This document shows positions 1,343 through 51,840 of a stretch of DNA of 64,000 nucleotides, piece by piece. The notes beneath the pieces are model-generated. The model saw nothing but the letters and a program-made list of their open reading frames with translations, did no database searches and was not told the origin of the DNA. This stretch comes from Desulfomonilia bacterium. GTDB taxonomy: Bacteria > Desulfobacterota > Desulfomonilia > UBA1062. Positions within the stretch are counted from its first letter, which is position 1. Every line of letters starts with the position of its first letter. A program made the position numbers and the translations under genes. Location: positions 96,001 through 160,000 of the forward strand of contig CAXXDQ010000008.1 in the NCBI GenBank assembly GCA_963664325.2, read 5' to 3'.

Positions 1343-3571
1343 CTACGCCTGGCAGACTTCCACAGGCGCTTTTTCCTCCTCCAGGCCCATGGCCTTCCAG
1401 ACGATTTCGGCAATATCCAGAGCCGTGACGCTTTCTTCCTTGCCGTGGCTCTTGATGCCGTCACTCATCATGGTCAGACAGAACGGGCACCCGACGGCAA
1501 TCGTATCGGCTTTCACATCAATGGCCTGTTTGGCCCGGGCATCATTGATGCGGTCGCCGTGCTCTTCCATCCACATGCGGGCGCCGCCGGCACCGCAGCA
1601 GAAACTCTTGCCGAGGTTTCGTTCCATCTCTACAAGCTGCAAACCCGGAATGGCTTTCAACGCCTTACGGGGCTGCTCATAGACATGGTTGTAACGGCCC
1701 AGGAAACAGGAATCATGATACGTAAATCGTCCGTCAACGGGTTTCCTCAATTTAATCTTGCCCTGGGCAATGAGGTCGGCGATAATTTCCGAATGATGAT
1801 AAACCTCAAACTTTCCGCCGAAGTGCGGATAATCCTTCTTCAGGGCATTATACCCATGGGGGCACGTTGCGATGACTTTTTTGACGCCGTAGGCATTCAT
1901 CACTTCAATATTAGCCTGCGCCATAGTCTGATAGAGGTATTCATTGCCGCCTCTCATGGCCGAATCTCCGCAGCAGCTTTCTTCATTTCCCAGAATCCCG
2001 AAACTGACGCCCGCTGCCTGCAGTACCTTGGCCAGGGCCACGGAGACTTTTTTGCCGCGGTCATCAAAGGATCCGGCGCATCCGACATAGAACAGGTATT
2101 CCACATTCGGATCTTCCGCCAATGTTTTCACACCTAATTCCTTTGCCCAGTCTGCCCGAAGATGCGATCCCACACCCCAGGGGTTGGAATTGTTTTCCAT
2201 ATTCCGGTAAGTCAGTTGCAATTCGGCGGCAAAATCGGCTTCCATGAGGACCTTGTACTGTCTCATGCCGATAATCTTGGGAACGTGCTCTATGGCTGCC
2301 GAGCAGTTTTCCATACAGTACATGCAATTTGTACAGGCCCAGAGTTCATCCAGGTTGATGACCTCACCGACCAGTGCTTTTTCCGTTGGCGCTGGGACGG
2401 GCGGCAGATTGGCATCGACAATCTTATCCAGTTTATCCAGCCACTGCAGTGCCGTTTTCGCCTTGCTGCACTTCGCCTGCTTCGTTTCATCGCCTTCGGC
2501 TTCGCTCACTTCGGCGAGCAGTTCCGCCTTTTTTGCGGCTATGGCAGCCGGTGCTTTCTCTACCCAATAGCTCTTCAGATCCTGAATCATCTTCTTTGGA
2601 GAAAGAGGTTTCCCCGTCAGGTAAGCCGGACAGCCGTCCTGACACCGGCCGCAGCGTGTGCAGGCATCGGCGTCAAAGACCTGTTTCCAGGTAAATTCCT
2701 CCAGGGTTCCCACACCAAAGGCCTCGGCATTTTCAAAGTCCCTGATGGGTTCCACGGTCCCCGTCGGTTTCATCGTGGCCATGAAATAGTTCGCCGGTGT
2801 TGTCACCAGATGGAGCATTCGTGAGAAGGGAATATAGGCGATGAACCCGAGAGCGATAAAGGTATGAATCCACCAAAGCGCTTTGTGCATGGCCAGTGCG
2901 GTTGCCGTTTCAACACCGGCCAAGGCCTTGGCCAAGGTCCATCCGACAAAGGACCAGACTTCCCAGGGGGTCTGCTGCCACGTGACATGTATCCTCATTG
3001 CTTCAATAAAAAAGCCTGTGATGATGATGCCGGCAATCAGTAACAGGACAATGGCATCGTCTGGTGTGGAATCGGATTTTCCCCGATAGCCCAAACGTTC
3101 CGGCTTGGTCAGATAACGCCGGTCAATGGCGATGAATACGCCGATCAAAACGGCCAATCCCGCAAAATCCATAAGAAACGAGAAAAAAAGATAAAATTTC
3201 CCGGTCAGAAAGGGAACGTGGAGCGGCTCGGCTACATGAAATTCCGTGGCATCAAACGCCGCGCCAAAGAAAAGGACAAGAAACCCAAAGAAAATCAACC
3301 CGTGCATGATGCCCGGGAAAAGATCCTGCAAAACTTTTACCTGTAGAAGACCATTGCGCAGGAGATTCTTGATGCGATCGTTTCTGTTATCGGTTCGATC
3401 TTCCGGCTCCGGTTTGCCGATGGCGGACCACATGAGCCAGCGGCGATAGAGTCCGTAAGCAAATATTACAAAGGCGATTCCTGTAAACAAAAACAGAAAC
3501 AGCTCAAAATGCTGAGCATTCCAAAAAACCTCCCTGCCTTCATGGCCTATCTTGAACTGTGATAGCTCCAT
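1343..3571 (-). CDS. Membrane Fe-S oxidoreductase (DUF224/HdrD-GlpC-like; probable ETF:(methyl)menaquinone oxidoreductase)
   Basis: N-terminal TM helices with His residues (NarI-like), CxxCxxCxxxCP, CTNCMYCMENC, two CCG domains (ESCCG, SFCCGAGG); adjacent to etfAB. Confidence 0.88.
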   Translation of the reverse strand: MELSQFKIGHEGREVFWNAQHFELFLFLFTGIAFVIFAYGLYRRWLMWSAIGKPEPEDRTDNRNDRIKNLLRNGLLQVKVLQDLFPGIMHGLIFFGFLVLFFGAAFDATEFHVAEPLHVPFLTGKFYLFFSFLMDFAGLAVLIGVFIAIDRRYLTKPERLGYRGKSDSTPDDAIVLLLIAGIIITGFFIEAMRIHVTWQQTPWEVWSFVGWTLAKALAGVETATALAMHKALWWIHTFIALGFIAYIPFSRMLHLVTTPANYFMATMKPTGTVEPIRDFENAEAFGVGTLEEFTWKQVFDADACTRCGRCQDGCPAYLTGKPLSPKKMIQDLKSYWVEKAPAAIAAKKAELLAEVSEAEGDETKQAKCSKAKTALQWLDKLDKIVDANLPPVPAPTEKALVGEVINLDELWACTNCMYCMENCSAAIEHVPKIIGMRQYKVLMEADFAAELQLTYRNMENNSNPWGVGSHLRADWAKELGVKTLAEDPNVEYLFYVGCAGSFDDRGKKVSVALAKVLQAAGVSFGILGNEESCCGDSAMRGGNEYLYQTMAQANIEVMNAYGVKKVIATCPHGYNALKKDYPHFGGKFEVYHHSEIIADLIAQGKIKLRKPVDGRFTYHDSCFLGRYNHVYEQPRKALKAIPGLQLVEMERNLGKSFCCGAGGARMWMEEHGDRINDARAKQAIDVKADTIAVGCPFCLTMMSDGIKSHGKEESVTALDIAEIVWKAMGLEEEKAPVEVCQA

Positions 3572-11452: not shown

Positions 11453-13088
11453 ATTAAGAAAATATTCGGCAATCTGAACGGTCTCGGCGCCCAGCAGATT
11501 CGGCGCATCGAACAGATTTACCGGCGCCAGGTCCCGTCCGACCGTATCGTCACCCACGAATTGGCCCGCTACATGACGGAAATTTCAAGGGAGATCAACC
11601 GTCAAATCGGTGTTCTCATCAGCCGCCGCGGGGATATCGAATATGTGCTTGTCGGTTCCCACCAGCAAATTTACATCCCCGGCCTTGACGGATTCCGTTC
11701 CTCTTCTCTCCGTTTTAAGGGATTGCGGCTGGTTCATACCCATTTGCATCAGGAAAAACTGACCGATGACGACTTGACCGATTTGGCCCTCCTGCGTCTG
11801 GATTTGGTTTGCGCCATCGCGGCTGAAGAAGACGGCCTGCCCGGTATTGCCCATACGGCCCACCTGATTCCGGAAAATCCGGAAGGAAAGTACTGGCAAT
11901 TCCTTCCGCCTGTTCGTCCCGCCGATATGCCTGTCAACTTTGCGGCTTTTATTACCGCTCTGGAAAACGAATTCAGCCGTACGCAGAAGAGCCGCAAGGT
12001 AGAAGCCACGGACCGCGCCTTGCTTGTCCGGGTCGAGACTAACACCTCGGGAGAGGGAGATAAATCCCTGGAAGAATTAAAAGAACTGGCCAGATCCTGT
12101 GATGTGGAAGTTTTCGATGCCGTCATCCAGCACCGGGAACACCTGGATCCCAAATATGTCATGGGGAGAGGAAAACTGGCGGACGTGGTCATCAAGGCCC
12201 TGCAAATGGGCGCCAATCTCCTGATTTTCGATCATGAACTGACCTCGGCGCAAGTCCGTTCCATCGCCGATTTTACGGAGATGAAGGTCATTGACCGTAC
12301 CCAGGTTATTCTCGACATTTTTGCCCAGCGGGCACACAGCAGGGAGGGTAAGATTCAGGTGGAACTGGCCCAATTGAAGTACCTCCTGCCGCGCCTGGCA
12401 ACCAAGCATACGGCCCTGTCCCGTTTAACAGGCGGCATCGGTGCCAGGGGGCCGGGTGAAACGAAGCTGGAAATCAACCGGCGGCGGATCCGGGACCGGA
12501 TAAACAACCTGGAAAAGCAGATGAAGGAGATTGAAAAAGCCCGGGGCCAACGACGCGTCAAGCGGGATAGAATGGGGCTTCCCATCATCTCCATTGTCGG
12601 ATACACGAATGCCGGCAAATCCACACTCCTGAATGCGCTGACCCAAAGCCGTGTCTTTACGGAAGACCGCCTTTTTTGCGACCCTGGATCCCAAAAGCTC
12701 ACGCCTGCGCTTCCCAAAGGATACGGAGGCGATCATCACGGATACGGTAGGATTTATCAGAGACCTGCCCCGTGATCTTTTTGCCGCTTTCCGAGCCACC
12801 CTGGATGAGCTCCATGAGGCCCATCTTCTCCTCCATGTCGTGGATATCAGCAATACGGGTTTTGACAACCATATGGCCGCCGTGGCTAAAATACTGGAGG
12901 AGCTTGACATCAAAAGTAAACCGACCATCCTTGTTTTTAACAAGCAGGACCGGTTCCCCGACAGCGAGCTCCTCAATGACCTCTGTATGCGCTATCAGGC
13001 CGTGGCCATATCGGCGCTGGATGAAACGACACTGCCGCCACTCGTAGAGAAGATGGAAGCCTCACTCAAAGCTTTTCATTATGATTGA
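11453..13088 (+). CDS. hflX: GTPase HflX, long N-terminal form (frameshift near 12680)
   Basis: GPGETKLE, VGYTNAGKST, FATLDP, DTVGF, NKQD motifs. Confidence 0.93.
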
Positions 13089-39187: not shown

Positions 39188-39773
39188 GGGATATGCATAT
39201 AAGGCTACCCGTTAAAAGGCTTCCATAAAAAGGAATTTACAAGCTCGGTTCGTTGAATTATTTTTAAACACCATCTTTTCGAAGACAAAAAAAATGCAGA
39301 TCATTGACGACCTGCAACATATGAGGAGGTTCTACAGGAATGTAACTTGAAGAACCTGATATTGCTTATAGACATATTTTTAAAAACTTAACACCAATTA
39401 TTTTAATATTTTTATATTTATTTCGTATATCCCCTATGATTTTCAGAAAAGGAATTCGCAAAAAGTTTAAGTATCAAGCATGAAACCGGTTTATCATAAT
39501 GACAGGACTTACGGGAATTCTTGCCGGAAACGCTGATTTGCCGGTCATTGTAATTACCTGGATCATAAATCGCATTCAAGGTTCGATTTGAGCCGGAGCC
39601 TGAATATAACCGGGTCCTTTGCTTAATATGGTTTTACATCTCGCGGGTTAAAGCTTTGTAGAAAAGATTAAGATCTGATCATCATAAAAAATAGTTTTGA
39701 TAGATGGTATTATCGTGGGGATGATTTCCAGAAAAAGAAAGGAGTCAGGTAATTCTACCTAACCCCATGAGGA

Positions 39774-39825
39774 TGTTTGGCGGTCCCAAGGGGATTCGAA
39801 CCCCTGTTACCGGCGTGAGAGGCCA
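39774..39825 (-). repeat. att site: displaced 3' part of tRNA-Glu (52-bp direct repeat)
   Basis: Identical to 51761-51812. Confidence 0.97.
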
Positions 39826-39954: not shown

Positions 39955-39986
39955 GTGGGGGATAGTGTGGGGGAAGGTGTGGGGGA
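39955..39986 (+). repeat. Three GTGGGGGA repeats, 12-bp period (probable integrase arm-type sites)
   Basis: Same motif occurs twice at 51688-51707 near the other att. Confidence 0.75.
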
Positions 39987-39999
39987 CAGGAGGTCAGAC

Positions 40000-41202
40000 A
40001 TGCCAAAGCAGGTAAGATTTGAAACAAAGTATCCGGGAGTATTTTTCATAAACGCTCAAGGCGAAACTGGTATTGAGAAGGTCTATTATATCCGCTACAG
40101 GAAGAACAGCAAACTTATCGAAGAAAAAGCTGGCTGGCAAAAGCGGGATGATATGACACCTGCCAGAGCGAACAATCTTAGAGTTGAGAGGCTTGAAGGA
40201 CGCCAGAGAACCAATGCAGAGCGCCGGGCAGAGGAAGTGGCTGCAAGAAAGGCGGAAGATTCAACCTGGACATTTAACCGTCTGTTCGGGCGTTATATCA
40301 AAGATAAATCTATTACAGACGAAAAAGAGCTTATTGATAAAGAGATTAAGGATGATGACCTCGATAAGATCGTTGCAGCGATGAAGTTCAAGAAGCCCGC
40401 TCAAATAGACATATCGAGATACAGGAAGTTCATTCAGAAACCCCTAGGAGATAAACAACCTCATGAAATCTTATTGCTGGATATTGACCGGATGCGCCTT
40501 AAATTATCCAAGACTTATAAACCTCAGACCGTAAAGCATGTGCTTAACCTGATAACAAGAATATCGAACTACGGTCACAAGAAAGGTTTATGTGAAGGCC
40601 TTGGCTTCTCAGTACAGAAACCCCGTGTTGACAATGTGGTCACGGAAGACCTTTCCCCTGATGAGTTGAGAAGGCTTCTCATAGCGATAGAGGCAGACCC
40701 GAACTGGACAGTTGCAAACATGATGCTCATGGCCTTGCATACAGGAATGAGGCGTGGCGAGCTTCTTAAATTGAAATGGGATGACATCAACTTCAATACA
40801 GGCTTCATAACGATCAGGAGTCCCAAGGGCGGGCGTGATGCCATGATACCTATAAGCCAGAAGGCCGGTGAGCTTTTAGATTCCATTGAGAGATTAGACA
40901 GCCCGTTCGTATTCCCTGGAGATAAGGGAAATCAGCGCGCACAGATATATCATGTTGTGAGTAGAATAAAAAAACGAGCTGGCTTGCCTAAAAGTTTCCG
41001 GCCCATGCACGGTTTAAGGCACGCCTATGCCTCGATGCTGGCTTCATCCGGGCAGGTTGATATCTACACCCTGCAGAAGCTCATGACGCATAAAGACTTC
41101 AGGATGACGCAACGATATGCCCATCTGAGAGATGAGACCTTAAAGAAGGCGTCAGGTATCGTAGGCGATATTATGGACGATGCAATGGAAAAGACCGGGT
41201 GA
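40000..41202 (+). CDS. Tyrosine recombinase (phage-type integrase)
   Basis: SD AGGAGG; TGMRRGE, SPKGG, HGLRH, MTH, RYAH catalytic set intact. Confidence 0.96.
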   Translation: MPKQVRFETKYPGVFFINAQGETGIEKVYYIRYRKNSKLIEEKAGWQKRDDMTPARANNLRVERLEGRQRTNAERRAEEVAARKAEDSTWTFNRLFGRYIKDKSITDEKELIDKEIKDDDLDKIVAAMKFKKPAQIDISRYRKFIQKPLGDKQPHEILLLDIDRMRLKLSKTYKPQTVKHVLNLITRISNYGHKKGLCEGLGFSVQKPRVDNVVTEDLSPDELRRLLIAIEADPNWTVANMMLMALHTGMRRGELLKLKWDDINFNTGFITIRSPKGGRDAMIPISQKAGELLDSIERLDSPFVFPGDKGNQRAQIYHVVSRIKKRAGLPKSFRPMHGLRHAYASMLASSGQVDIYTLQKLMTHKDFRMTQRYAHLRDETLKKASGIVGDIMDDAMEKTG

Positions 41203-41322
41203 TAAACTCGTTTGATTGTAAATAGGATAATGAACTTACTCCTTAATGACAAACCCGACAAAAGGGACAAAAACCATTTATCACAGTTGAATCAACTTAA
41301 CAAATATGTTAATAACATTCCT

Positions 41323-41658
41323 ATGTCTTGGACGATAGAATATTATAGCGGGAAGGTTCAGGAAGATATTTATTCTCTTCCTGCAAGCCTTCAGGCTCGC
41401 TATATTCATCTATCTGAAAGGATGCTCGTATATGGCGCGAACCTGAAAGAACCACACACAAAAGCGCTGGAAGATGGTCTGTTTGAGTTAAGACTAAAAG
41501 GCAAAGAGGGGATTGCACGTGTTCTTTACTGTACGGCTATTGGAAGCAAGATCGTCATGCTTCATTGTTTCATAAAGAAAACGGATAAAATTCCCAAGAG
41601 AGAACTAGAGACAGCAAAACACCGCATGATGGAGGTGAAGCAGAATGTTAACTCATGA
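41323..41658 (+). CDS. Type II toxin, RelE/HigB (Gp49-like)
   Basis: EPHTKALEDGLFELR, RVLYC, LHCFIKKT.K.P..EL..A..R. Confidence 0.9.
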   Translation: MSWTIEYYSGKVQEDIYSLPASLQARYIHLSERMLVYGANLKEPHTKALEDGLFELRLKGKEGIARVLYCTAIGSKIVMLHCFIKKTDKIPKRELETAKHRMMEVKQNVNS

Positions 41659-41947
41659 TAAATTTGTTAAAAAGATGTTGAGTAACCCGATCGTTAAGGC
41701 CGAATATGTCGCCCTTGAAGAAGAATTTATATTTCTTGATGAATGCCTGAAAGCGCGGAATGAAGCCGGGCTCACTCAAGCGGATGTTGCAGAACGCATG
41801 GGGACTAAAGCCCCGGCTGTAGCAAGGATAGAATCAGGCGGGGGAAGCAAGAAACATTCACCGTCCATAGCCACACTGCGTAAGTATGCAGAAGCCGTGG
41901 GATGTAAATTGAAAATTAAATTAGTACCAAAAAATAAAGCAGCATGA
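41645..41947 (+). CDS. HigA-type HTH antitoxin
   Basis: LTQADVAERMGTKAPAVARIESG, PSIATLRKYAEAVG; overlaps the toxin. Confidence 0.9.
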   Translation: MLTHDKFVKKMLSNPIVKAEYVALEEEFIFLDECLKARNEAGLTQADVAERMGTKAPAVARIESGGGSKKHSPSIATLRKYAEAVGCKLKIKLVPKNKAA

Positions 41948-42702: not shown

Positions 42703-42897
42703 TTGAAGATTGCTATATCCGCAAAAATTTACATTATCCCTGAAAAGCTTGTGTTTAACTGATTCTATCCCATATTAACCCTAAATAAATCTGCTATATC
42801 GGAACCACATCCGAACCCTATCCAAACCACATTAGTTGAATTGCGGTTATTAGGGATGTGTATATGTAAAGGACATCTCAGGAACAAGGAGGATGCC

Positions 42898-43098
42898 GTG
42901 GTAAATGAAATTATGAAATTCATCGATGAAAAAGAAGCTGCAAGGATTACTGGAATTGCAGTCCAGACATTGAGGAATTATCGTCAGAAAAGTAAAGGCC
43001 CCGCATACTGCAAGGTCGGATCATCCATTAGGTATTTCTTGCCAGATTTGCAAGAGTTTATGCTGAAATGCCGGATTGACCCATCGACCAGAGTATAA
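42898..43098 (+). CDS. Excisionase/AlpA-like HTH protein
   Basis: IDEKEAARITGIAVQTLRNYR..GPAYCKVG..IRY; SD AGGAGG. Confidence 0.85.
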   Translation: MVNEIMKFIDEKEAARITGIAVQTLRNYRQKSKGPAYCKVGSSIRYFLPDLQEFMLKCRIDPSTRV

Positions 43099-43100
43099 TC

Positions 43101-43727
43101 ATGACAAGAAATCAAACCCCTCCACCCGTTGGGAGCGGATTGAGGGGGAAGGCAATCGAAAGGGCTCTAAATACTGAAAAAATAATGCCATGCCTCAACC
43201 TTGGTGTCAAGTCTACGTCTCCTATTAAGGAAAGCCTTCAAGCGCATGGCTGGGCGATTAAGAACACTGCGGTCTTATCACCTGAAATGATATACTCACG
43301 GGCTTTTAACACTCTCTCTCCAACAGCATTGCGAGTTCTAATTAGACTCCTTCAAAAACGTCATTGGGAGAAAACAGGCAAAAGGCGAAAGGCCGATATT
43401 AAATATACCAATAATGGACTGATTTTTACATACGCCGAAGCAGCCTGTTTTGGTATACCCCATGCCTCATTCAACCGCGCCATAAAGGAACTTGTGGCGA
43501 AAGGCTTTCTTGTCATTGAGCATCAAGGCGGGAGCTTTTCCCAGGGCAACAAAGACCCCTCGATATACGGTTTGGTTGGTGACTTCAAACATTACGGAAC
43601 CGACAACTATAAACCAAGAGAAAAGCCACCTTTAATTCGGTACAGTAGGGGATTCACAGAATTCAATGAAAAGAGAAAAACGAATTTGTCGCACTCACGG
43701 ATGACTGTTGATAACAGTCAATTATGA
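43101..43727 (+). CDS. Winged-helix protein, putative replication initiator
   Basis: AF..LSPTAL.VL..L...NNG.IFTY...SFNRAIKELVAKGFL; lies after xis; iteron-like repeats at its 3' end. Confidence 0.6.
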   Translation: MTRNQTPPPVGSGLRGKAIERALNTEKIMPCLNLGVKSTSPIKESLQAHGWAIKNTAVLSPEMIYSRAFNTLSPTALRVLIRLLQKRHWEKTGKRRKADIKYTNNGLIFTYAEAACFGIPHASFNRAIKELVAKGFLVIEHQGGSFSQGNKDPSIYGLVGDFKHYGTDNYKPREKPPLIRYSRGFTEFNEKRKTNLSHSRMTVDNSQL

Positions 43728-44010
43728 GTGTCGAAGGGACAAAAACAAGCCGGAGAGGGGTATCAAAAATGGCTGTGGAAAAAAACAAGAGACGGGACCA
43801 GGAATCATCACATAAAGTGTATTTGTGGAAATATTACAGGCTTCAGGCAAATTTCACCTCTCCACAGTCACGGATGAGTGACTTTATATATTATACCAGC
43901 CCCTTGTCCTATCTGTTGGGCCTTTCAGGTTTTGACCTCAGACCAGACATAAACCATGCGCGGGCCGAAAAATCACAATACAGAAACAAAAATAATAAAG
44001 GAGAAAAAAC

Positions 44011-44241
44011 ATGTTGATCGCAGAAATGGAAAAAAACGCATTAGAAGTTATAAGGGTAAGTCTTACCGAATTTCACAACCACAGGTTTGTTGATTGCCGT
44101 GTGTATTACCAGGACGATCAAGGCGAGTGGAAGCCGACCAAAAAAGGCATCGCCCTGAACGAGGGCACTATTGACGGCGTGATAAAGGCCCTGGAAGAAG
44201 GGCGTGTGCAACTTCAATCGGATGAAGGTCCACAGTTATAG
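44011..44241 (+). CDS. PC4/p15 (YdbC-like) single-stranded DNA-binding protein
   Basis: IRVSLTEF...VDCRVYY...WKPTKKGIAL. Confidence 0.88.
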   Translation: MLIAEMEKNALEVIRVSLTEFHNHRFVDCRVYYQDDQGEWKPTKKGIALNEGTIDGVIKALEEGRVQLQSDEGPQL

Positions 44242-44492: not shown

Positions 44493-44966
44493 ATGAAAAC
44501 AGCAACGACGACAGAACCCAAAAGAAAGATAAGCAAGACGAGACTTGATTGTATGCTGCGAAGACGTAAAATAATCGAGGCATGTCTTGAAGGAAAACCC
44601 TTGAAAGAAACCGCTATTGCAGTGGGTTTATCGCCACGGTCAGCGGGAACACAGGTATCTCAAATATTAAAAGAACCGAAAGTTCAGCAGTATTTTGCCG
44701 AAATATTGGAGACAGAGGGGCTATCTGATAAAATATTGGCAGAAAAGCTCCAATATCTATTGAATGCTCGCAATATCATCTATTTTCAGCACAAAGGACG
44801 TGTTACTGATGAAAGGGATGTTCCGGCTCACGAAACACAACGCAAGACCCTGGAACTGATCGCCCGGCTGAAAGGCCACCTGAAAGAAGCTGATCGGGGT
44901 AGCGTAGATGTCCAGGTCAACCTCATGGGCCTTGTTGTCCAGGCACTAAAGCAGGATCAGGACTGA
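44493..44966 (+). CDS. Putative terminase small subunit-like HTH protein
   Basis: AIAVGLSPRSA...SQILKEPKVQ resembles the TerS N-terminal HTH; C-terminal KTLELIARLKGHL. Confidence 0.6.
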   Translation: MKTATTTEPKRKISKTRLDCMLRRRKIIEACLEGKPLKETAIAVGLSPRSAGTQVSQILKEPKVQQYFAEILETEGLSDKILAEKLQYLLNARNIIYFQHKGRVTDERDVPAHETQRKTLELIARLKGHLKEADRGSVDVQVNLMGLVVQALKQDQD

Positions 44967-45369: not shown

Positions 45370-45845
45370 TGCTATGGCAGTTGGTACATCCGGCAGGATA
45401 CTACCGCCTACCCATTGCAGGCATAGGCAAGGCAGTGTGGCAACAGAATACAATAATGATCTGCTGACAGGTATTCATTGTGGTGCCGAGCCGATGATCG
45501 ATATCAACCCTCCCTACCCACCAAAGGGGGGGGTATGCGGGCCACTAACCCGTCCTTTCAATATTAACAAGATAGCCACAGACTGCGATTCTATTTTTAA
45601 AAATTCCAAAAATAAAGGCAGGAGATTTAGTCTGGATCAATCGACAACTTGTTAAGGTCTCCAGATGAGACCTGCAAAACCTGTCCATTCCAGATAACCT
45701 CAAGATATCTGGACTTTTTATGAGCCTTAAGAAATGAAAACATTCGTGATATACGTTATACTATTGCATGTATGGCTTTCAGTGCATATCTGCGGCAGAA
45801 ACCTATAGTTTTTCAACTTTATATAATGAAGATCCCTTTCGGAGA

Positions 45846-45912
45846 TGATAACGTGCCACGTAACCGGCTGGCGCGTTTTTTGCGCCAGTCCGAGTTGACG
45901 CGGTTGTTCTGG
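45846..45912 (-). repeat. Integron attC site (attC1)
   Basis: Minus strand CCAGAAC-5nt-CGTCAACT...GGTTACG-6nt-GTTATCA; imperfect hairpin with extra C. Confidence 0.75.
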
Positions 45913-46119
45913 CCTTTTTTCATGCCCTGGTGGCTACTGGTAGTTTCAATCGCTTGCTCAGCCTTCACCGTGATCTTGATCCTGGGTCTTGTAGTTGCCT
46001 CTATCGCGCCTTTAGTCCGGCCTGTATCGTAGCTCCGCGGCCGCGCCAGCAGATTTGGCGTCGTCCCTTCGGAATGGTTTTTGATTCTGGCCTTTGTCGT
46101 GGCCGCTATTTATGATTGG

Positions 46120-46181
46120 GCAGAAAGAGCCGGCTCAGCAGCGACGCGTTAGAGGCGACCGACTGAAGCCGAATATTAGCA
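46120..46181 (-). repeat. Degenerate attC site (attC2)
   Basis: Minus strand TGCTAAT-5nt-GCTTCAGT...GCTGAGC-6nt-TTTCTGC; both core boxes mutated; ~60 bp downstream of the preceding gene. Confidence 0.55.
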
Positions 46182-46239
46182 GATGTCATGTTTGGTTAAA
46201 CAACTTGATGATAATCACAGCATGATCCCTTTAGCTCTT

Positions 46240-46715
46240 TCAACCCCCGCCTATATCTTCGGCAACTTCGTCTGTCTTCTGCATTGCAGCTTCATAAATT
46301 AATCTATCCCTTGCATCAGCAAACTCGTAATAGAGATCTCGCGCGTATGTATCATCCATGTTTGGCAGTAAGTTAGTCGCGAAGATAGATGACTTCATTT
46401 CTATTTCTTTAGGGATAACGCCAGCAAAATACTCAGAAGGTTGCTTATTTGAAATCTTCTTGTTAGACGCAGAGGGCTGAAAACAGATATTGACCAGCCA
46501 ATTAATTTCATCAAACTTAAATCCTTTTTTAACTAGGAAGCTTCGGGGGAAGATATGATGATATTCTTTAGCGTTAAAGCAGGATAGCGCATCGCCAATA
46601 TTAATGCGGGCGCCATTCGTAAGATCTTGCGGGTGATTATCTGCCATTAATAATAGAGTTGCCTTTGACCACGGATCGTATCTAGACAAGGGTCTTTTGA
46701 AACTCCCTGGCTTTT
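46240..46715 (-). pseudogene. C-terminal fragment of a DUF262/GmrSD-type protein
   Basis: KEYHHIFP.SFL...N.C...ASSNKKISNK.PSEY; 5' part missing. Confidence 0.65.
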
Positions 46716-46724
46716 GCTAGCATT

Positions 46725-47369
46725 TTGAGTCAGCTTGCGAAAACTCGGTCAAAGTGGTGGGAAATCGCTGGTAATCCCGAAGAACCATTTATGGAGCCAG
46801 TACCTTTAGAAGAATATAAAGAATTTAAAAAATTATTTTACGAACACCAGCTTTTCTTTGACAGCGATTGCCTTTTAGCAATTGACTTGGCCATTAAAGC
46901 TATGACTGATTCCTTCCCCGCCTATGACTTTGACGGACCACTCCAAAAAAAAGAATGTTGGGAATCATATGAGCGGCTTGAGTATATTCGGGATCGCATG
47001 GCCCAAATATTCCAAGAAAAGATCGGAGTTACCTCTGCCAATCAAGCAAAATATGAAATAGCCCTTCTTGCTTTAATAAAATTGCTTAACTCATATCATT
47101 TCTCTATAATTGGACTACCAGTTACAGGTAATTTGAAATTATCCTACCGTGATGAGGCCCATGAAGCTGTGACGAAGGCTAAACAAAACATTGGTGAGCT
47201 AATTACCAAGGCAAAAGAATTTACAGAGTATTTATTAAAAGAAGGTTACTTTCATGAAGCATCAACAACGGCAGATAGATGTCTGGCAATATTAGAAAAT
47301 GATCAATTTAAATTACTATCCAACCAAGTCGCTCCACCCGATCGCGGGCCGCTGGCCCGCTCCGGGTGA
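46725..47369 (+). CDS. Hypothetical cassette protein, probably 5'-truncated
   Basis: 214-codon ORF without a good start/SD, ending inside attC3. Confidence 0.55.
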   Translation: MSQLAKTRSKWWEIAGNPEEPFMEPVPLEEYKEFKKLFYEHQLFFDSDCLLAIDLAIKAMTDSFPAYDFDGPLQKKECWESYERLEYIRDRMAQIFQEKIGVTSANQAKYEIALLALIKLLNSYHFSIIGLPVTGNLKLSYRDEAHEAVTKAKQNIGELITKAKEFTEYLLKEGYFHEASTTADRCLAILENDQFKLLSNQVAPPDRGPLARSG

Positions 47370-47383
47370 GCTTTTCGTTAGCC
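47318..47383 (+). repeat. Integron attC site (attC3)
   Basis: ATCCAAC...GCTCCACCCG...CGGGTGAGC...GTTAGCC; 66 bp; extrahelical C. Confidence 0.88.
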
Positions 47384-47418
47384 AGCCCACAAAAAAGTAA
47401 GCTTAATGGAGGAATGAA

Positions 47419-47668
47419 ATGATATTTGAAATCAAAGGCGGGAAACGGAATGGAGAACGCTTTGAGGCAGATTTTAAAGAAGGAACAAAGCTTTTTAAAA
47501 GAGGATATGTTACTGTGCATGATGTTGCCGCAGATGGATCAGTTATGACCTCAAAAGTTGTTAAGATAGAACCGGTTTTTGAGGCGCAACGAGATGAAGA
47601 GATAGTTGAACTCAAATAAGATAGAGACCAAGATTCCAATTACCGTAAAGACTAAACATAAAGAGTAG
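47419..47668 (+). CDS. Small hypothetical cassette protein (probable frameshift near 47615)
   Basis: SD GGAGG; the alternate frame continues KIETKIPITVKTKHKE to a TAG abutting attC4. Confidence 0.55.
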
Positions 47669-47739
47669 ACTAACCATACCTTGCACTCGGACGGCAATTC
47701 TGCTACACTCTATTACCGCCATTGAAAGCCACGTTAGGT
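47668..47739 (+). repeat. Integron attC site (attC4)
   Basis: GACTAAC...TTGCACTCGGACGGCAAT...ATTACCGCCATTGAA...GTTAGGT; inverse core matches upstream GTTAGCC at 6/7. Confidence 0.8.
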
Positions 47740-47769
47740 ATACTTAATCTTCTTTTTTAGGGAGGTGAT

Positions 47770-48156
47770 ATGAGCGATAATTATTATCAAGAAGAGGAGC
47801 ATCCAGATATATATGAAACCACCAGTATATCAAATGCTCTAACATTTCAGTTTGAAGTAGTACTTACACAAATTCATTCACAATTAGCATCAAGCAAAAT
47901 CATTGTAGTTATTCTCTCCATCTCATTGACTCTTTCCACAATACTGTTTCAAGTACAACCTTATTGGATTTTTAAATCAGAACTCATGAAATTTCTTCCA
48001 GCAACGTTAGTATTAATTATTTTCTGTCTGGTAAACACTCTACTGAGGGTGCTTAAACTTTTTGAAGCAGCCCGAGAAGGAAGGAAAGCTCTATTGAAGT
48101 TGAATCAAGCTAAAGAAGAAGTTCTCTTTTTCGTCAATAATAAGGGCACTCTATGA
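47770..48156 (+). CDS. Hypothetical 2-TM protein (cassette gene 1)
   Basis: SD GGAGGT ~25 bp after attC4; two hydrophobic segments. Confidence 0.75.
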   Translation: MSDNYYQEEEHPDIYETTSISNALTFQFEVVLTQIHSQLASSKIIVVILSISLTLSTILFQVQPYWIFKSELMKFLPATLVLIIFCLVNTLLRVLKLFEAAREGRKALLKLNQAKEEVLFFVNNKGTL

Positions 48157-48677
48157 ACAAGATGGATGCAGAGCTTAGGTCTTTGGTAGCTGTGAATAAA
48201 GAGGCCACTCATATACTAGCATCTATAATCCGATCCTCCAATACAGCTTCAAAACAGTCTAGTTCCACACTTATTGGAACTCTGGGTGGGTTCATCGGTA
48301 TGGGCGTATCTTATGCCTTAACTTTAATCGCACCGATATCTTTACCAGTCGTTAGCGTTTTCCTTACAGGTTTGGGTATTATTATTGCTTTATTGGTTCA
48401 TCGTGGTCCACGAAGATTGAATTTTGAGATGCGACTAGAAGAGAATAGAATCTTAACTGAAGAAATTCTCTCAAGAATAAAGAACTTGCCTAGAAATGCG
48501 CCACAGGAAGTGAAGGATGAGCTATGGCATACTTATCAAACTTTAAATTCTATGCTCGGAAATCAAAGCAAAGATCATCTAGCATTGCCAGCACCAGGAT
48601 CATCGTCAGTAAAAAAAGTGCGTCATAAAGCTATTACAGAGCAGGACAATACTAATAATTCAAAGGTTGATACCTAA
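48153..48677 (+). CDS. Hypothetical 2-TM protein (cassette gene 2)
   Basis: ATGA overlap with the upstream gene; TAA stop lies inside the attC5 inverse core ACCTAAC. Confidence 0.78.
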   Translation: MNKMDAELRSLVAVNKEATHILASIIRSSNTASKQSSSTLIGTLGGFIGMGVSYALTLIAPISLPVVSVFLTGLGIIIALLVHRGPRRLNFEMRLEENRILTEEILSRIKNLPRNAPQEVKDELWHTYQTLNSMLGNQSKDHLALPAPGSSSVKKVRHKAITEQDNTNNSKVDT

Positions 48678-48735
48678 CCAGCCCATCCAGATGGACGCGG
48701 GCTGCCGCCTGCGCTGCTGATGTGCATCGTTGTAG
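48672..48735 (+). repeat. Integron attC site (attC5)
   Basis: ACCTAAC (exact complement of GTTAGGT at the cassette start)...CATCCAG...CTGATG...GTTGTAG. Confidence 0.85.
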
Positions 48736-49064
48736 TCATCTCCGGAAGAGAGTTCTAGTCTAAAAGTAACAAATTGAAATTTATAGTTTTATCATGTTAT
48801 TAATAATTGAAATCGATCTGAAAATAACTCATTTCTTGAGCCTCTCACTGGCTGGTTTGTATTTAAGATATCATCGGAAGACCAAAAGCTATTCTAGTTT
48901 TTTAAAAATGAGGATTTATCCCAGCTATTTGTACTCAGGTTTATGCTTTGAGCGGTTATTGTTTATATATATTCTGTTTCTCAGTTATTGCTTAAGCAGT
49001 AATCATAGCAAAATAATAAGAACCTACCAGTTATGAGCCGAGAGCCACCACGGATACATTACAT

Positions 49065-49505
49065 CTAATCATGAGATTTTCTGTTCCTAATTTCATCAAT
49101 CATTTTCTTGATATCATTCTTAACTGTTGAGGCTATTTTGTTCATCTTCCAAGAAAAATGAAAGAATGCCATTGCCAGAAACAGGCTGCTTAATGCCGGA
49201 ACCCAACACCACAATAATCTTGGCTGTACAATGGTCTGTATAAAAAATCCTGGTATCATCCCCATGAAGAGATGTGCCCATTGTCTATAATGCTTGGCCA
49301 TCTCATCATATTGATTGAAACTGGTTTGAAGACTCTCAAGTTTTTCCAGTTCAGTGTCCATGACAATAAAACCGAGGATGGGTGGGGGGATAGGAATTTT
49401 AATAGGACGCTTTATTGTTAATTTGTTATCGTACATAGGGGTAGTAAGATTATTGTGTTGCCTGCTCAGAATAAGTTTACGATTGGATCTTTTGACATCT
49501 ATCAT
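49065..49505 (-). CDS. Hypothetical membrane protein, probable cassette gene
   Basis: SD GGGAGG; bracketed by GTTACAT (49616-49622) and ATGTAAT directly after the stop. Confidence 0.55.
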   Translation of the reverse strand: MIDVKRSNRKLILSRQHNNLTTPMYDNKLTIKRPIKIPIPPPILGFIVMDTELEKLESLQTSFNQYDEMAKHYRQWAHLFMGMIPGFFIQTIVQPRLLWCWVPALSSLFLAMAFFHFSWKMNKIASTVKNDIKKMIDEIRNRKSHD

Positions 49506-49692
49506 GTCCCACCTCCCTTTTTGGGAATTGGCTATGAACGCCACTCCAAAACGGTATGCAAGGTCTAAATCCCTTGACTCGGGGAGGAAGTTGGCTTAAG
49601 CAGAAAGTGATTTGAATGTAACGTTCTGTTATAAGCCGCCTTCCCGTCCCCGACCGGATCGGAAGGCGATTTCCTTCTTCTTTATAGACGAG

Positions 49693-50061
49693 GATATTTG
49701 ATGATCCGTCAAGGATATCGATCATCACTACATATTCGCCTTTTGGATAACCATCAGGAACAAGCACGACATCATCATCTTCCTCTGATGCCATAACGCA
49801 AACCTTGCCTATATAGCTGAGGGCATTTATAAAAGCCCTGTCGGCAAATACATCGAGCTTCTGCTGTTCGTCGCCAGTTATATTCTTTGCTCCAGCAGAA
49901 CCAAGAATATTTTCTGCAAGCCCCGCCTGCGAAACCTGTGCGGAAACCACCTTGGCAGCCAGGACTATCTGGGTCAACACCGAACTGAAATCCCCTGTTC
50001 CTCCGTAAAGCCTTTGCTCTTCTATTATATGCCTTTCAATAGTCATCAGGATGTCTTTCAT
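49693..50061 (-). pseudogene. fbp: Class I fructose-1,6-bisphosphatase, 3'-truncated
   Basis: GDEQQKLDV, MASEE, D(I)LDGSSNI, then abrupt loss of similarity. Confidence 0.88.
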
Positions 50062-50075
50062 TGATCAGCCTCCAC

Positions 50076-50981
50076 TTATGATTGTATGTTCATGCTCCTG
50101 GCAAGCCAGCCTGTCATCTGGTCAACAACCATTTTCAGAACATCCCTCGGCAGGAAATATTCGCCTGCATTTTCTGACATCCAGCTGGTAATCTCTTCAG
50201 ACGTCAACTCCGCGCTGTTTGTTCTCTTCAATGAATCTTCTATCATCGTCCGGGTCTCAACCGCCGCCTTAATCGATTTGGGAATAAAGGACCTTGCGTC
50301 CTCGCCGGTAAAAGCCCCGTAATGTTCTGCACCATGAAAATCCACACCGTATCCAGCCATTTTAACAAGGCTTGCCTGATACAGATCAAAGTTCGAGTTT
50401 GCAGCTGCAAAAACCAGTCCCCCGAAAGGAATGCCGCCTGCATCAGAGGCAAAGAGGGCTTTTAACTCGGGGACATAAACAGCCATCGAGCATGTGCTGT
50501 GGCCGGGCACCATCATGAATTCAAGTGTCAGGTCTCCGATTCTTCTGGTTTCACCCTCGTCCGGCATGTCATCAACAGGTATTGTATCGAAATCCAATCC
50601 CAGTTCATCTGCCCTATCTGCCAGACCGTTGTTCGAAAGCACCATACGATTAATACCTTTTATCGCATCTATAACAGCAGGCTTGGCAAGCTGAACGGCT
50701 CCTCTGGCTGAAGCCGTTATACTAACCCACGGCCATCGCTTTTTAAAATACGGAACAATGCCTACATGATCGAAGTGCGAGTGATGGATCACCAGACGGC
50801 TTATCGACTTTTCGTAAGTACCTGTATTAGCAATCTGGCTTTGAACGTCAGGAACGATATAAGTCATTCCTCCGCCGAGAATCGCATACTCCGTCCTACC
50901 GTCAAGAAGATAGACGCATGATTCCCTGCGGCCTAAAAGTGTTATTCGGTCGGTTACTTTTCCGGGAGTGTTAAATATCAT
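50076..50981 (-). CDS. Metallo-beta-lactamase-fold hydrolase
   Basis: HSHFDH, PGHS, ASD, EHYG. Confidence 0.88.
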   Translation of the reverse strand: MIFNTPGKVTDRITLLGRRESCVYLLDGRTEYAILGGGMTYIVPDVQSQIANTGTYEKSISRLVIHHSHFDHVGIVPYFKKRWPWVSITASARGAVQLAKPAVIDAIKGINRMVLSNNGLADRADELGLDFDTIPVDDMPDEGETRRIGDLTLEFMMVPGHSTCSMAVYVPELKALFASDAGGIPFGGLVFAAANSNFDLYQASLVKMAGYGVDFHGAEHYGAFTGEDARSFIPKSIKAAVETRTMIEDSLKRTNSAELTSEEITSWMSENAGEYFLPRDVLKMVVDQMTGWLARSMNIQS

Positions 50982-51068
50982 GACGGCCCCTAAATTAAAG
51001 TTTCATCATATCTTGTGAAGATTTTATATTTTAAAAATTTGCTTAGTGCGCCGACAAGATGCATTCGA

Positions 51069-51265
51069 TCAAGGAACCTGGGTAAAACCCTCTTCCTTTG
51101 CAAGCTCGTCAAAATCCAGCGTCAGAGCGTCCATTGTTTCCGCATCCGGTGAAATTTTATCCTTTGTATCAACGGCCTTGATATAATGGCCGCATTCCAT
51201 ACAGAAATATACCTTTACACCGTCAATGACTTCGACATCAAAAAAAGCTGGGTTTTTCATGGTTA
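51069..51265 (-). pseudogene. FdhE-like C-terminal fragment
   Basis: CMECGHYIKAVD...DALTLDFDELAKEEGF; N-terminus missing. Confidence 0.65.
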
Positions 51266-51764
51266 GTATTTCCACAATAAGTGCATTTAACCCTTGGGGA
51301 CCTCCATGAAAACCCATAGAATGTCTATTTGAGAACTCTCTGAGATTTTTTCAAATTCGACCTGTTGACGGAATATCGGTTTAGGCCTGTTTAAGTACTG
51401 CCGTGCTTATAATTACGAAGTGGTCAGCAAGCCACAGCCTCCCACAGCGATGATCCTTTGCGAGGCAATACAAACATCTTCACCTGGGCCTTGAGGGTGG
51501 GTAATACCTGTGGCGGTTATTTAATATCATGCCGGGGGTGCTAAACATAAAATATAAGCTTAGGCAATGAGGTTTGCTAAAATATTTCAGGGGAAGTGGG
51601 ATGAAGGTACTAATTCAGAAATGCCTACTTGTTATCAAAAGTTTCGCCAGAGAAACGGGACTGATTTCTTTCAAAACAAGCCTATGGGTGGGGGATAGTG
51701 TGGGGGACATACCTATGAAAATGAAAAAGGGTTAGGCAAATCTACCTAACCATTTGGAATTGTT

Positions 51765-51840
51765 TGGCGGTCCCAAGGGGATTCGAACCCCTGTTACCGG
51801 CGTGAGAGGCCAGCGTCCTAGACCCCTAGACGATGGGACC
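51765..51840 (-). tRNA. tRNA-Glu(CTC)
   Basis: GGTCCCA...CTGGC-CTCTCAC-GCCGG...GTTCGAATC...GGGACCGCCA; full cloverleaf with CCA. Confidence 0.97.

What the first reader, a model, noticed from the sequence alone, without database searches (positions are those of the whole stretch)
45846..49692. Integron cassette cluster (CALIN) as cargo of a phage-satellite-like element, with no IntI
Seen: five attC-like hairpins with RYYYAAC/GTTRRRY-type boxes, standard 5/6-nt spacers and extrahelical bases, plus two degenerate ones. They delimit short AT-rich ORFs. Cassette logic holds: GTTAGGT at the start of one cassette matches ACCTAAC containing its stop codon. The only recombinase here is a phage-type integrase. 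Established: satellites carry defence hotspots, and attC clusters lacking IntI exist. Inference: the variable locus of this satellite is stocked with integron cassettes, possibly by a host IntI in trans, so the satellite could shuttle cassettes between hosts. I do not know this coupling as a described system in this phylum.
Basis: partly seen in the sequence, partly recalled or inferred. Interest (0 to 1): 0.88.

Follow-up and report, generated by a model that had tools for sequence, protein, structure and literature searches.

The report
Integron cassettes inside a satellite-like island
Four genuine integron recombination sites (attC) with their small gene cassettes sit inside a 12-kb island inserted at a tRNA-Glu gene, a known kind of integrase-less cassette cluster in an unusual carrier, and the link to the carrier looks opportunistic, not systematic.

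Summary
I built an attC covariance model only from sites next to intI genes in other genomes of the phylum. In the 64-kb window its four best hits all fall at 45846-48735 (E 1.5e-5 to 3.5e-3; the next hit has E 1.4). Three sites are on the + strand, directly after ORFs, and follow cassette logic. One is inverted and sits on a truncated cassette.

The cluster lies inside a 12-kb island bounded by an 88-nt direct repeat of the tRNA-Glu 3' half. The island carries a tyrosine integrase, an excisionase-like gene, a PC4-like gene and a weakly TerS-like gene. No IntI is in the assembly, but another cassette array runs off a contig end, so an intI may lie in a gap.

A second island in the same genome shares the PC4-TerS module at 98.8% identity and also holds a cassette array. 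Elsewhere, only 1 of 22 related loci with enough downstream sequence shows an attC, and 2 islands of the same integrase family show none. This genome also has at least 7 attC loci outside islands.

Verdict: a real but decayed CALIN, a new member of a known kind. Satellite-specific coupling is not shown.

The parts
39738..39825 (.). Distal island end (attL): direct repeat that includes a displaced copy of the tRNA-Glu 3' half.
   Evidence: 88-nt direct repeat with 51725-51812, 86% identical overall and identical over roughly the last 50 nt.
39955..41202 (+). Tyrosine (phage-type) integrase; not an integron integrase.
   Evidence: PF00589 E 8.7e-31. phrog_1 integrase E 1.2e-49. TIGR02249 gives only 36 bits against a cut-off of 265.
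41212..41947 (+). Two overlapping small genes: a phrog_2523 protein of unknown function and an XRE-type HTH regulator.
   Evidence: phrog_2523 E 2.8e-36; phrog_1373 E 1.4e-27.
42841..43098 (+). Excisionase/AlpA-like HTH protein.
   Evidence: phrog_66 E 2e-9.
44011..44241 (+). PC4-like small DNA-binding protein.
   Evidence: PF02229 E 7.3e-14, above the cut-off. 95% identical to the copy in the C3 sister island.
44493..44966 (+). TerS-like HTH protein (weak assignment).
   Evidence: phrog_641 E 2.8e-6. Pfam Terminase_2 is below its cut-off. The top Foldseek hit is an SPP1-like small terminase, prob 0.96, E 0.023, TM 0.28-0.32, on a model with pLDDT 70.5. 100% identical to the C3 copy.
45846..45912 (-). 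attC site A, inverted relative to the others. R'' is CCAGAAC and R' is GTTATCA on the minus strand.
   Evidence: R2 34.1 bits, E 1.9e-5. Sequence.
46240..46689 (-). 3' fragment of a DUF262 (GmrSD-like) gene: the remnant of a truncated cassette that ends in attC A.
   Evidence: Aligns to residues 392-519 of a 528-aa homologue at 48% identity. All six homologues found are 517-536 aa and carry PF03235.
46725..47369 (+). Cassette ORF of 214 aa, with no family and no homologue found; its stop lies inside attC B.
   Evidence: No Pfam or PADLOC hit. No match in 400 other genomes of the phylum.
47318..47383 (+). attC site B. R'' is ATCCAAC and R' is GTTAGCC.
   Evidence: R2 34.6 bits, E 1.5e-5. It resembles an intI-adjacent site at L057:1395-1459. 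In the metagenome contigs this bin is 4-8 times deeper than its neighbours, with loose ends at 47325 and 47380.
47419..47619 (+). Cassette ORF of 66 aa. The cassette spans 47378-47733 if the crossover is taken inside the GTT of R' (position recalled from the literature).
   Evidence: ORF list. No family above threshold.
47668..47739 (+). attC site C. R'' is GACTAAC and R' is GTTAGGT.
   Evidence: R2 24.1 bits, E 3.5e-3. R'' matches the preceding R' at 3 of 4 variable positions.
47770..48677 (+). Two-gene cassette of 128 aa and 174 aa; the second stop lies in R'' of attC D.
   Evidence: ORFs 47770-48156 and 48153-48677 overlap by 4 nt. No Pfam or PADLOC hits. My reading of long hydrophobic stretches in the translations suggests membrane proteins; no predictor was run.
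48672..48735 (+). attC site D. R'' is ACCTAAC and R' is GTTGTAG.
   Evidence: R2 28.2 bits, E 4.1e-4. R'' is the exact complement of the preceding R'.
48736..49692 (.). Last unit, which has no terminal attC. It holds a minus-strand ORF of 159 aa (49065-49544) and a hairpin at 49637-49668.
   Evidence: No R2 hit at E<=10. The hairpin folds at z -2.4 and overlaps a terminator-like call at 49661-49678. No family found for the ORF.
49693..51355 (-). Duplicated chromosomal segment: the 5' 117 positions of fbp (truncated), an MBL-fold gene and an 82-aa ORF.
   Evidence: 94.2% identical over 1665 nt to C3:742082-743745, where fbp is full length.
51725..51840 (-). Proximal island end (attR) within intact tRNA-Glu(ctc), 51765-51840.
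   Evidence: Direct repeat. tRNA called by ARAGORN and Rfam. G402, of the same genus, has the same architecture with a 6.5-kb island.

Best explanation
The region is a small, decayed cluster of genuine integron gene cassettes (a CALIN). It has three same-strand attC sites that delimit two complete cassettes and end a third, plus one inverted attC on a cassette that has lost three quarters of its gene. It lies in the distal half of a 12-kb integrative island inserted at tRNA-Glu(ctc).

An integron integrase built the B-C-D array at some time. That is shown by the complementarity between each R' box and the R'' box of the next cassette. Where this happened is inferred, with two options. One is in this island, by an IntI acting in trans (attC x attG, then attC x attC). 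The other is in a true integron, from which a fragment was later moved.

The same half of the island has since been reshaped by ordinary recombination. The evidence is the truncation, the inversion, a copied chromosomal fragment, and a module exchanged with a second island.

The island has the gene set of a small phage-dependent element (integrase, excisionase-like, PC4-like and TerS-like genes, with no structural genes found). If it still moves, the cassettes would travel with it as passengers. The association with this element family is opportunistic. It is part of a genome-wide scatter of cassettes in a lineage where integrons are common.
For: attC identity:
- Independent models put their four best window hits in the region.
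- All 28 new R1 hits in the reference loci lie on the strand predicted from the intI orientation.
- Pairing is 80.5% against 85.9% in the references.
- Cassette logic matches at 3/4 and 4/4, with a positive control of 27 of 39 adjacent pairs.
- ORF stops lie in or just before the sites.
- attC B occurs in other sequence contexts in the metagenome contigs.

Location inside the island:
- An 88-nt direct repeat sits at 39738-39825 and 51725-51812, with no third copy between them.
- G402 has the same integrase (81% identical) and the same repeat at the same tRNA around a 6.5-kb island.

Decay:
- The DUF262 fragment.
- The 94% copy of C3:742082-743745, which cuts fbp.
- The PC4-TerS module, 98.8% identical to C3:677898-679274.

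Scatter across the genome:
- attC hits at 9 loci in the own genome, counting the two islands.

Integrons in the lineage:
- IntI is above the cut-off in 136 of 401 phylum genomes and in 3 of 6 genomes of the same family.
- G401, of the same genus, has a partial IntI at a contig end.
Against: - The E-values of the home-made models are rough. Sites C and D are weak with the seed-only model (E 0.037 and 0.23).
- R1 found sites in only 12 of 24 intI-adjacent loci. The model sees only part of the phylum's attC diversity, so absences elsewhere are soft.
- Two islands sharing the PC4-TerS module both carry arrays, and 7 of about 19 strong attC hits lie in about 1% of the genome. This hints at more than pure chance.
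- Island mobility, helper dependence and recombination of these sites by an IntI are all untested.
- IntegronFinder itself was not available.
Confidence: 0.75

Rival explanations
1. Dedicated coupling. The variable region downstream of the TerS-like gene in this family of satellite-like islands is a preferred landing place for integron cassettes supplied by a host IntI. The islands then serve as regular shuttles of cassettes between hosts.
For: - Both islands of this genome that share the PC4-TerS module hold attC arrays.
- One metagenomic relative, L093 (TerS 59% identical), has an ORF ending in an attC 1.3 kb downstream of TerS: 26.6 bits, E 0.0013.
- There is a marginal hit 1.2 kb downstream of TerS in G209 (E 0.43).
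- About 7 of 19 strong attC hits lie in about 1% of the genome.
Against: - Only 1 of 22 related loci with at least 3 kb downstream has a hit (filters were off for only 3 of them).
- Neither the C4 island nor the G402 island, both of the same integrase family, has a hit.
- The position is not fixed. The first attC is 0.9 kb from TerS in the window and 11.9 kb from it in the C3 island.
- Orientation differs between sites.
- The array is decayed.
- At least 7 attC loci lie outside integrase islands.
Confidence: 0.15
2. The array was not built in the island. It is a fragment of a chromosomal or foreign integron array that reached the island by general or illegitimate recombination, or came with the island from a former host, with no IntI acting on the island itself.
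For: - The neighbouring 1.66-kb chromosomal duplicate and the 98.8% identical module show that this half of the island takes up DNA by recombination.
- The first cassette has no recognisable R' box at its left end (sequence).
- Cassette A is truncated and inverted.
- The last unit lacks an attC.
- The four attC sites differ in length (64-72 nt) and in sequence.
Against: - No other copy of 45846-49692 exists in the genome, and no donor array was found.
- Cassette insertion outside integrons by IntI is experimentally established. Per the abstract, excision of inserted cassettes can also modify the chromosome (10.1101/2022.09.11.507474, abstract and passages). That could produce the same scars.
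Confidence: 0.4
3. The hairpins are not attC sites. They are transcription terminators or another repeated palindromic element that mimics the boxes by chance.
For: - The MFE z-scores of sites C and D are unremarkable (-0.68 and -0.41).
- The hairpin at 49637-49668 is terminator-like.
Against: - The four best hits of an independent structure-plus-sequence model cluster here.
- They share the L-box motifs, the two bulges and the box complementarity with intI-adjacent sites.
- None of them is called terminator-like.
Confidence: 0.03

Closest known systems
[quoted passage not shown] 2016, seen only as cited in PMC11389934)
   Same: Two or more attC sites a few hundred bases to about 1 kb apart, each following promoter-less small ORFs, with no intI nearby.
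   Different: One site is inverted and its cassette is truncated. The cluster sits inside an att-delimited island with a phage-type integrase.
SALIN and small CALINs made by attC x attG insertion (preprint 10.1101/2022.09.11.507474, abstract and passages read; published version not read)
   Same: Cassettes lie outside any integron, scattered over the genome as singles and small clusters, with no intI pseudogene beside them.
   Different: No insertion junction of the expected form could be recognised at the left end of the array. The insertion mechanism is inferred, not shown.
CALINs and integrons in phage and prophage genomes (PMC9892861, passages read)
   Same: Cassette arrays are carried by a phage-related mobile element, and divergent attC orientations were also seen there.
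   Different: The carrier here has no structural genes and is a 12-kb satellite-like island. That paper does not contain the word 'satellite' (0 occurrences).
Phage-inducible chromosomal islands and other phage satellites (PMC6092414, seen in a search listing only; features partly recalled)
   Same: Size (12 kb), flanking att repeats, an integrase at one end, excisionase-like and regulator genes, a TerS-like gene, no capsid or tail genes, and a variable accessory region at the far end.
   Different: No primase or replication gene was recognised among the ORFs I scanned (the C3 sister has a DUF3987/NrS-1-like one). The TerS assignment is weak. Induction and packaging are untested.
Integrons carried by integrative mobilizable or conjugative elements such as SGI1 or SXT-type ICEs (recalled, not checked here)
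   Same: Integron cassettes ride on an element that integrates by its own tyrosine integrase.
   Different: Those elements carry complete integrons with intI and resistance cassettes. Here there is no intI, and the cassette genes have no known function.

Membership tests
attC recombination site | Inverse core boxes R'' (RYYYAAC) and R' (GTTRRRY) at the two ends | tested here: met
   AAC and GTT are invariant in all four sites. The variable positions fit the consensus only partly: CCAGAAC/GTTATCA, ATCCAAC/GTTAGCC, GACTAAC/GTTAGGT, ACCTAAC/GTTGTAG. The consensus itself is recalled and matches the reference alignment.
attC recombination site | Imperfect hairpin with L''/L' boxes, unpaired spacers and extrahelical bases on one arm | tested here: met
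   The inner helix pairs in 89.8% of cells, against 92.2% in the references. Both single-base bulges of the model are kept. Spacers are 5/6 nt in A and D, 6/5 in B and 5/5 in C.
attC recombination site | Significant score with an attC covariance model | tested here: met
   The models were home-built from intI-adjacent sites; E-values run from 1.5e-5 to 3.5e-3. IntegronFinder's own model was not available.
attC recombination site | Recombined by an integron integrase | not testable with these tools
   Needs an attC x attI conjugation assay.
CALIN | At least two attC sites close together (threshold recalled as under 4 kb), with no intI nearby | tested here: met
   Sites B-C are 285 nt apart and C-D 933 nt apart, on the same strand. 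The only recombinase within the window region is a non-IntI tyrosine integrase.
Complete integron | intI gene with attI next to the array | tested here: not met
   TIGR02249 reaches at best 84 bits against a cut-off of 265 anywhere in the assembly. The genome has only 5 PF00589 genes, none of them IntI-like. Caveat: the genome is 95.6% complete, and an array is cut by a contig end.
Phage satellite (PICI-like) | Integrase, flanking att repeats, size of roughly 7-20 kb | tested here: met
   The island is about 12 kb.
Phage satellite (PICI-like) | Replication module (primase or replication initiator) | tested here: not met
   No primase or replication family was found among the island ORFs scanned: five core ORFs with Pfam and ten with PHROGs. 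The small ORFs at 41212-41947, 42841-43098, 43724-44017 and 45374-45655 were scanned with PHROGs only. The C3 sister island has a DUF3987 plus NrS-1 polymerase-like protein.
Phage satellite (PICI-like) | Packaging-hijack gene such as terS, and no virion structural genes | tested here: inconclusive
   The TerS-like calls are weak. None of the 10 ORFs scanned matched a capsid or tail PHROG.
Phage satellite (PICI-like) | Induction and packaging by a helper phage | not testable with these tools
   The laid contigs show no excision joints. Contigs cannot show rare forms.

The most novel reading that the evidence does not exclude
Small satellite-like islands with the PC4-TerS module act as vehicles for integron cassettes. 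An IntI of the host loads cassettes into their accessory region. The island, which needs no IntI of its own, then carries them into new hosts inside phage particles. That would link the integron cassette pool to phage-mediated transfer. The support is that two of two such islands in this genome and one metagenomic relative carry attC-bounded genes.
Probability: 0.17. Interest if true: 0.65.

Novelty: new member of a known kind. Interest (0 to 1): 0.4.

Why it matters
Integron cassettes are usually thought to move between cells on plasmids, transposons and conjugative elements. A cassette cluster inside an att-delimited, satellite-like island would be one more route, and one that needs no integron integrase in the carrier.

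This case also shows cassettes spread over many loci of one genome that has no assembled intI. That fits the recently described insertion of cassettes outside integrons. One cassette remnant is a DUF262 (GmrSD-like) gene. The sister island's cassettes include Mrr-like and DUF4145 proteins. Both fit the current view that cassettes often encode anti-phage functions.

As it stands this is a well-documented example, not a new system.

Tried and rejected
- A simple box-plus-fold scanner of my own was too insensitive for counting. I used it only to pick seed sites.
- MFE z-scores do not separate attC sites from background for sites C and D.
I rebuilt it from 41 hits.
- A search for the TerS-like protein as a single sequence in genome contigs found nothing. 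It is rare in the species-representative genomes: 3 of 401 phylum genomes and 4 of 52 family genomes, both counts including the own genome.
- The 214-aa cassette protein has no match in 400 other phylum genomes, so its genomic context elsewhere could not be used.
- PADLOC found nothing in the 6 window cassette proteins or in 4 cargo proteins of the C3 island.
- Left and right flanks of the island lie on different contigs in G401-G403, so an empty site could not be shown. G401 and G403 have other DNA downstream of the tRNA.
- nhmmer with a sequence-only profile found the same loci more weakly and added none.
- Laid contigs and reads showed no island excision or cassette-loss joints. Contigs drop rare forms, so this says nothing either way. 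Run X5 covered only the tRNA.
- Two literature searches that paired integron attC or CALIN with phage satellites found no paper on that pairing. In the PICI papers, 'attC' appears to mean the chromosomal attachment site; that reading is from titles, abstracts and recall, not from the passages. Supplements were closed and may hold such cases, for example the tables of PMC9892861 or of the biobank preprint.

Full report
WHAT IS THERE. The window is G000:C8:96001-160000. Region 45846-49692 is AT-rich (GC 0.34-0.41 over most of it). It holds small ORFs separated by GC-rich imperfect hairpins.

TESTING THE attC CLAIM. IntegronFinder was not available, so I needed a model that owes nothing to the window. 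I located integron integrases in other genomes of the same phylum with NCBIfam TIGR02249. IntI scored above the curated cut-off in 136 of 401 genomes, and in 3 of 6 genomes of the same family. I fetched the DNA on the attI side of 24 of these intI genes, plus one control stretch on the far side of one intI.

Repeats in these arrays showed the expected sites. I aligned 23 of them and wrote the canonical structure onto the alignment: an R''/R' helix, spacers, and an L''/L' helix with two single-base bulges. That gave model R1.

R1 found 51 sites in 12 of the 25 loci. All 28 sites that were not in the seed lie on the strand predicted from the intI orientation. The control stretch gave none. Thirteen loci gave no hit, so the model covers only part of the phylum's diversity. 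I built R2 from the 41 best hits. In this reference set 85.9% of pair cells are standard pairs, against 28-38% when partners are slid.

RESULT ON THE WINDOW. With filters off, R2 gave four hits:
- 47318-47383 (+): 34.6 bits, E 1.5e-5
- 45846-45912 (-): 34.1 bits, E 1.9e-5
- 48672-48735 (+): 28.2 bits, E 4.1e-4
- 47668-47739 (+): 24.1 bits, E 3.5e-3

The fifth hit has E 1.4. R1 ranked the same four first. The four sites pair in 80.5% of cells, and in 89.8% in the inner helix. Eight of 20 pairs change on both sides among them (the alignment is fitted to the model).

Each + strand site lies at or just after an ORF stop. The 214-aa ORF ends inside site B, and the stop of the 174-aa ORF is in R'' of site D.

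Cassette logic holds. R' of B matches the complement of R'' of C at 3 of 4 variable positions, and C to D matches at 4 of 4. All 7 non-adjacent combinations match at 2 of 4 or fewer. In the reference arrays 27 of 39 adjacent pairs match at 3 or more, against 19.5% of 2511 non-adjacent pairs.

None of the four sites is called terminator-like. The candidate at 46120-46181 is not significant (E 5.6). The hairpins at 46020-46110 and 49637-49668 get no hit. So four sites are real, not five plus two, and one of them is inverted.

STATE OF THE ARRAY.
- The inverted site A follows, on the minus strand, an ORF of 149 aa. That ORF aligns to residues 392-519 of 517-536-aa DUF262 proteins. This cassette has lost about three quarters of its gene, at about 46690-46700, where the + strand cassettes begin.
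- No R' box is recognisable at that junction.
- After site D comes a unit with a minus-strand ORF of 159 aa and no attC.
- That unit ends at 49692, exactly where a 1665-nt copy begins. The copy is 94.2% identical to C3:742082-743745 and carries an 82-aa ORF, an MBL-fold gene and only the first 117 profile positions of fbp. The full fbp gene is on C3.
- The cassette proteins match no Pfam, PADLOC or phylum homologue.

THE CARRIER. An 88-nt direct repeat sits at 39738-39825 and 51725-51812. It contains the 3' half of tRNA-Glu(ctc), which lies at 51765-51840 on the minus strand. There is no third copy in between.

Next to the distal repeat lie these genes:
- a tyrosine integrase (PF00589, phrog_1)
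- a small gene pair with an XRE regulator
- an excisionase-like gene
- a PC4-like gene
- a 157-aa HTH protein with weak small-terminase signals

No structural genes, and no primase or replication gene, were recognised among the ORFs scanned.

G402, of the same genus, has a 6.5-kb island with an 81% identical integrase between the same repeats at the same tRNA. This supports reading 39.8-51.8 kb as one att-delimited unit that contains the cassette cluster. The 'satellite' label remains a resemblance.

IS THE COUPLING RECURRENT? Inside this genome, yes. Segment 43990-45367 (PC4 and TerS-like) is 98.8% identical to C3:677898-679274. That copy lies in a 31.7-kb island delimited by a perfect 59-nt repeat (C3:672732-672790 and 704428-704486). 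The C3 island has a different integrase and a DUF3987/NrS-1-like primase.

The C3 island holds a minus-strand array with attC hits at C3:690757, 695116 and 695807 (E 2e-6 to 2e-4), plus a weak one at 694374 (E 0.072). Each follows ORFs: an NTP-transferase plus radical-SAM pair, DUF4145, an unknown protein, and an Mrr-like nuclease.

Outside this genome, mostly no.
- The TerS-like family is small: 26 proteins.
- Of 59 loci fetched with it, 22 have at least 3 kb downstream.
- Only L093 shows a hit at E<=1 with default filters. It is at 11742-11827, 26.6 bits, and a 227-aa ORF ends in it.
- G209 has a marginal hit (E 0.43).
- The two other islands with the window's integrase family, C4:583-591 kb and G402, have none.

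THE GENOME AT LARGE.
- TIGR02249 finds no IntI (best 84 bits against a cut-off of 265).
- PF00589 finds only five genes: two of about 300 aa, which I read as XerC/D-like by length and IntI-profile coverage, and the three island integrases.
- attC hits nevertheless occur at nine loci in all: the two islands, C5:62.6-64.3 kb (3 sites), C7:343.9 kb, C7:1019.7-1021.1 kb (2 sites), C4:666.5-667.0 kb (2 sites), C4:902.6 kb, C4:492.1 kb, and the start of contig C8 (339-396 and 1919-1982).
- The C8 array is on the + strand and is cut by the contig end, so an intI could lie in the gap. The assembly is 95.6% complete.
- G401, of the same genus, has a partial IntI at a contig end and one attC beside it.
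- In Logan contigs of the sample that holds this sequence, the bin with attC B is 4-8 times deeper than its neighbours. Contigs break there, with loose ends at 47325 and 47380. Near-identical attC copies therefore exist in other contexts in that community. No excision joints were seen.

HOW IT MOST LIKELY WORKS.
- Shown: these are attC-bounded cassettes, joined to each other in the way an integron integrase joins them. They lie inside an island with its own unrelated integrase and apparently intact ends.
- Inferred: an IntI of the lineage, now lost or unassembled, either inserted cassettes into the island or built the array elsewhere before a fragment was recombined in.
- On insertion in situ: IntI-mediated insertion outside att sites is experimentally established, as is later excision that alters the chromosome (10.1101/2022.09.11.507474, abstract and passages).
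- On import of a fragment: the truncation, the inversion, the missing terminal attC, the adjoining chromosomal duplicate and the exchanged module show that general recombination reshapes this half of the island.
- Without a promoter-bearing attI platform, expression of the cassettes is uncertain.
- If the island excises and is transferred, the cassettes go with it, and an IntI in a new host could reuse them. This is inference.

COMPARISON AND NOVELTY.
- CALINs are a defined class. Reviews note that complete integrons can mobilise them in trans (PMC11389934, passages).
- Small CALINs and single cassettes outside integrons are common.
- CALINs and integrons in phage and prophage genomes, including divergent attC orientations, are described (PMC9892861, passages).
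- My searches found no paper that places integron cassettes in phage satellites. The carrier may therefore be a new context, but the thing itself is a new member of a known kind.
- The coupling looks opportunistic. The bolder shuttle reading keeps a probability of about 0.17.

Noticed in passing
window 39286-39414: An element of about 130 nt with 80-91% identical copies on several contigs of this genome and of three genomes of the same genus. It has no tRNA or Rfam match.
   Followed up: no
window 45526-45575; also L076, L093, L095, L098, L122, L144: A conserved motif, a G-run followed by TATG and a GC-rich palindrome-like stretch, lies 70-580 nt downstream of the TerS-like gene in 7 of 22 loci examined. 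It might be a packaging site, a promoter or a small RNA.
   Followed up: partly
window 39955-39988 and 51688-51709: Copies of a 20-22-nt G-rich repeat flank the att core at both island ends. One set overlaps the annotated GTG start of the integrase ORF. They look like arm-type integrase binding sites.
   Followed up: no
window 49693-51355 and G000:C3:742082-743745: A recent intragenomic duplication (94% identical) of an 82-aa ORF, an MBL-fold gene and the 5' part of fbp sits inside the island. The fbp copy in the window is truncated after about 117 profile positions.
   Followed up: yes
G000:C8:1-3500 (L160): A cassette array (attC at 339-396 and 1919-1982, with a weak one at 3401-3455, all on the + strand) is cut by the contig start. 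An intI may lie in the assembly gap.
   Followed up: partly
G000:C3:672732-704486 (L076, L079): A 31.7-kb island with a perfect 59-nt direct repeat. It carries a DUF3987/NrS-1-like primase, two sets of Big_5/fn3 surface proteins with FGE-sulfatase genes, a four-cassette array, and NACHT and DUF2971 proteins.
   Followed up: partly
G402:C28 (L152 10056-16657) and G000:C4:583-591 kb (L077): Smaller islands with integrases 81% and 85% identical lie at tRNA-Glu genes. The one on C4 is at tRNA-Glu(ttc). Neither has an attC hit.
   Followed up: yes
window 47118-47568 in runs X1, X2, X4: Depth is 4-8 times that of neighbouring bins, and contigs break at attC B. The same attC therefore occurs in other contexts in that community.
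   Followed up: no
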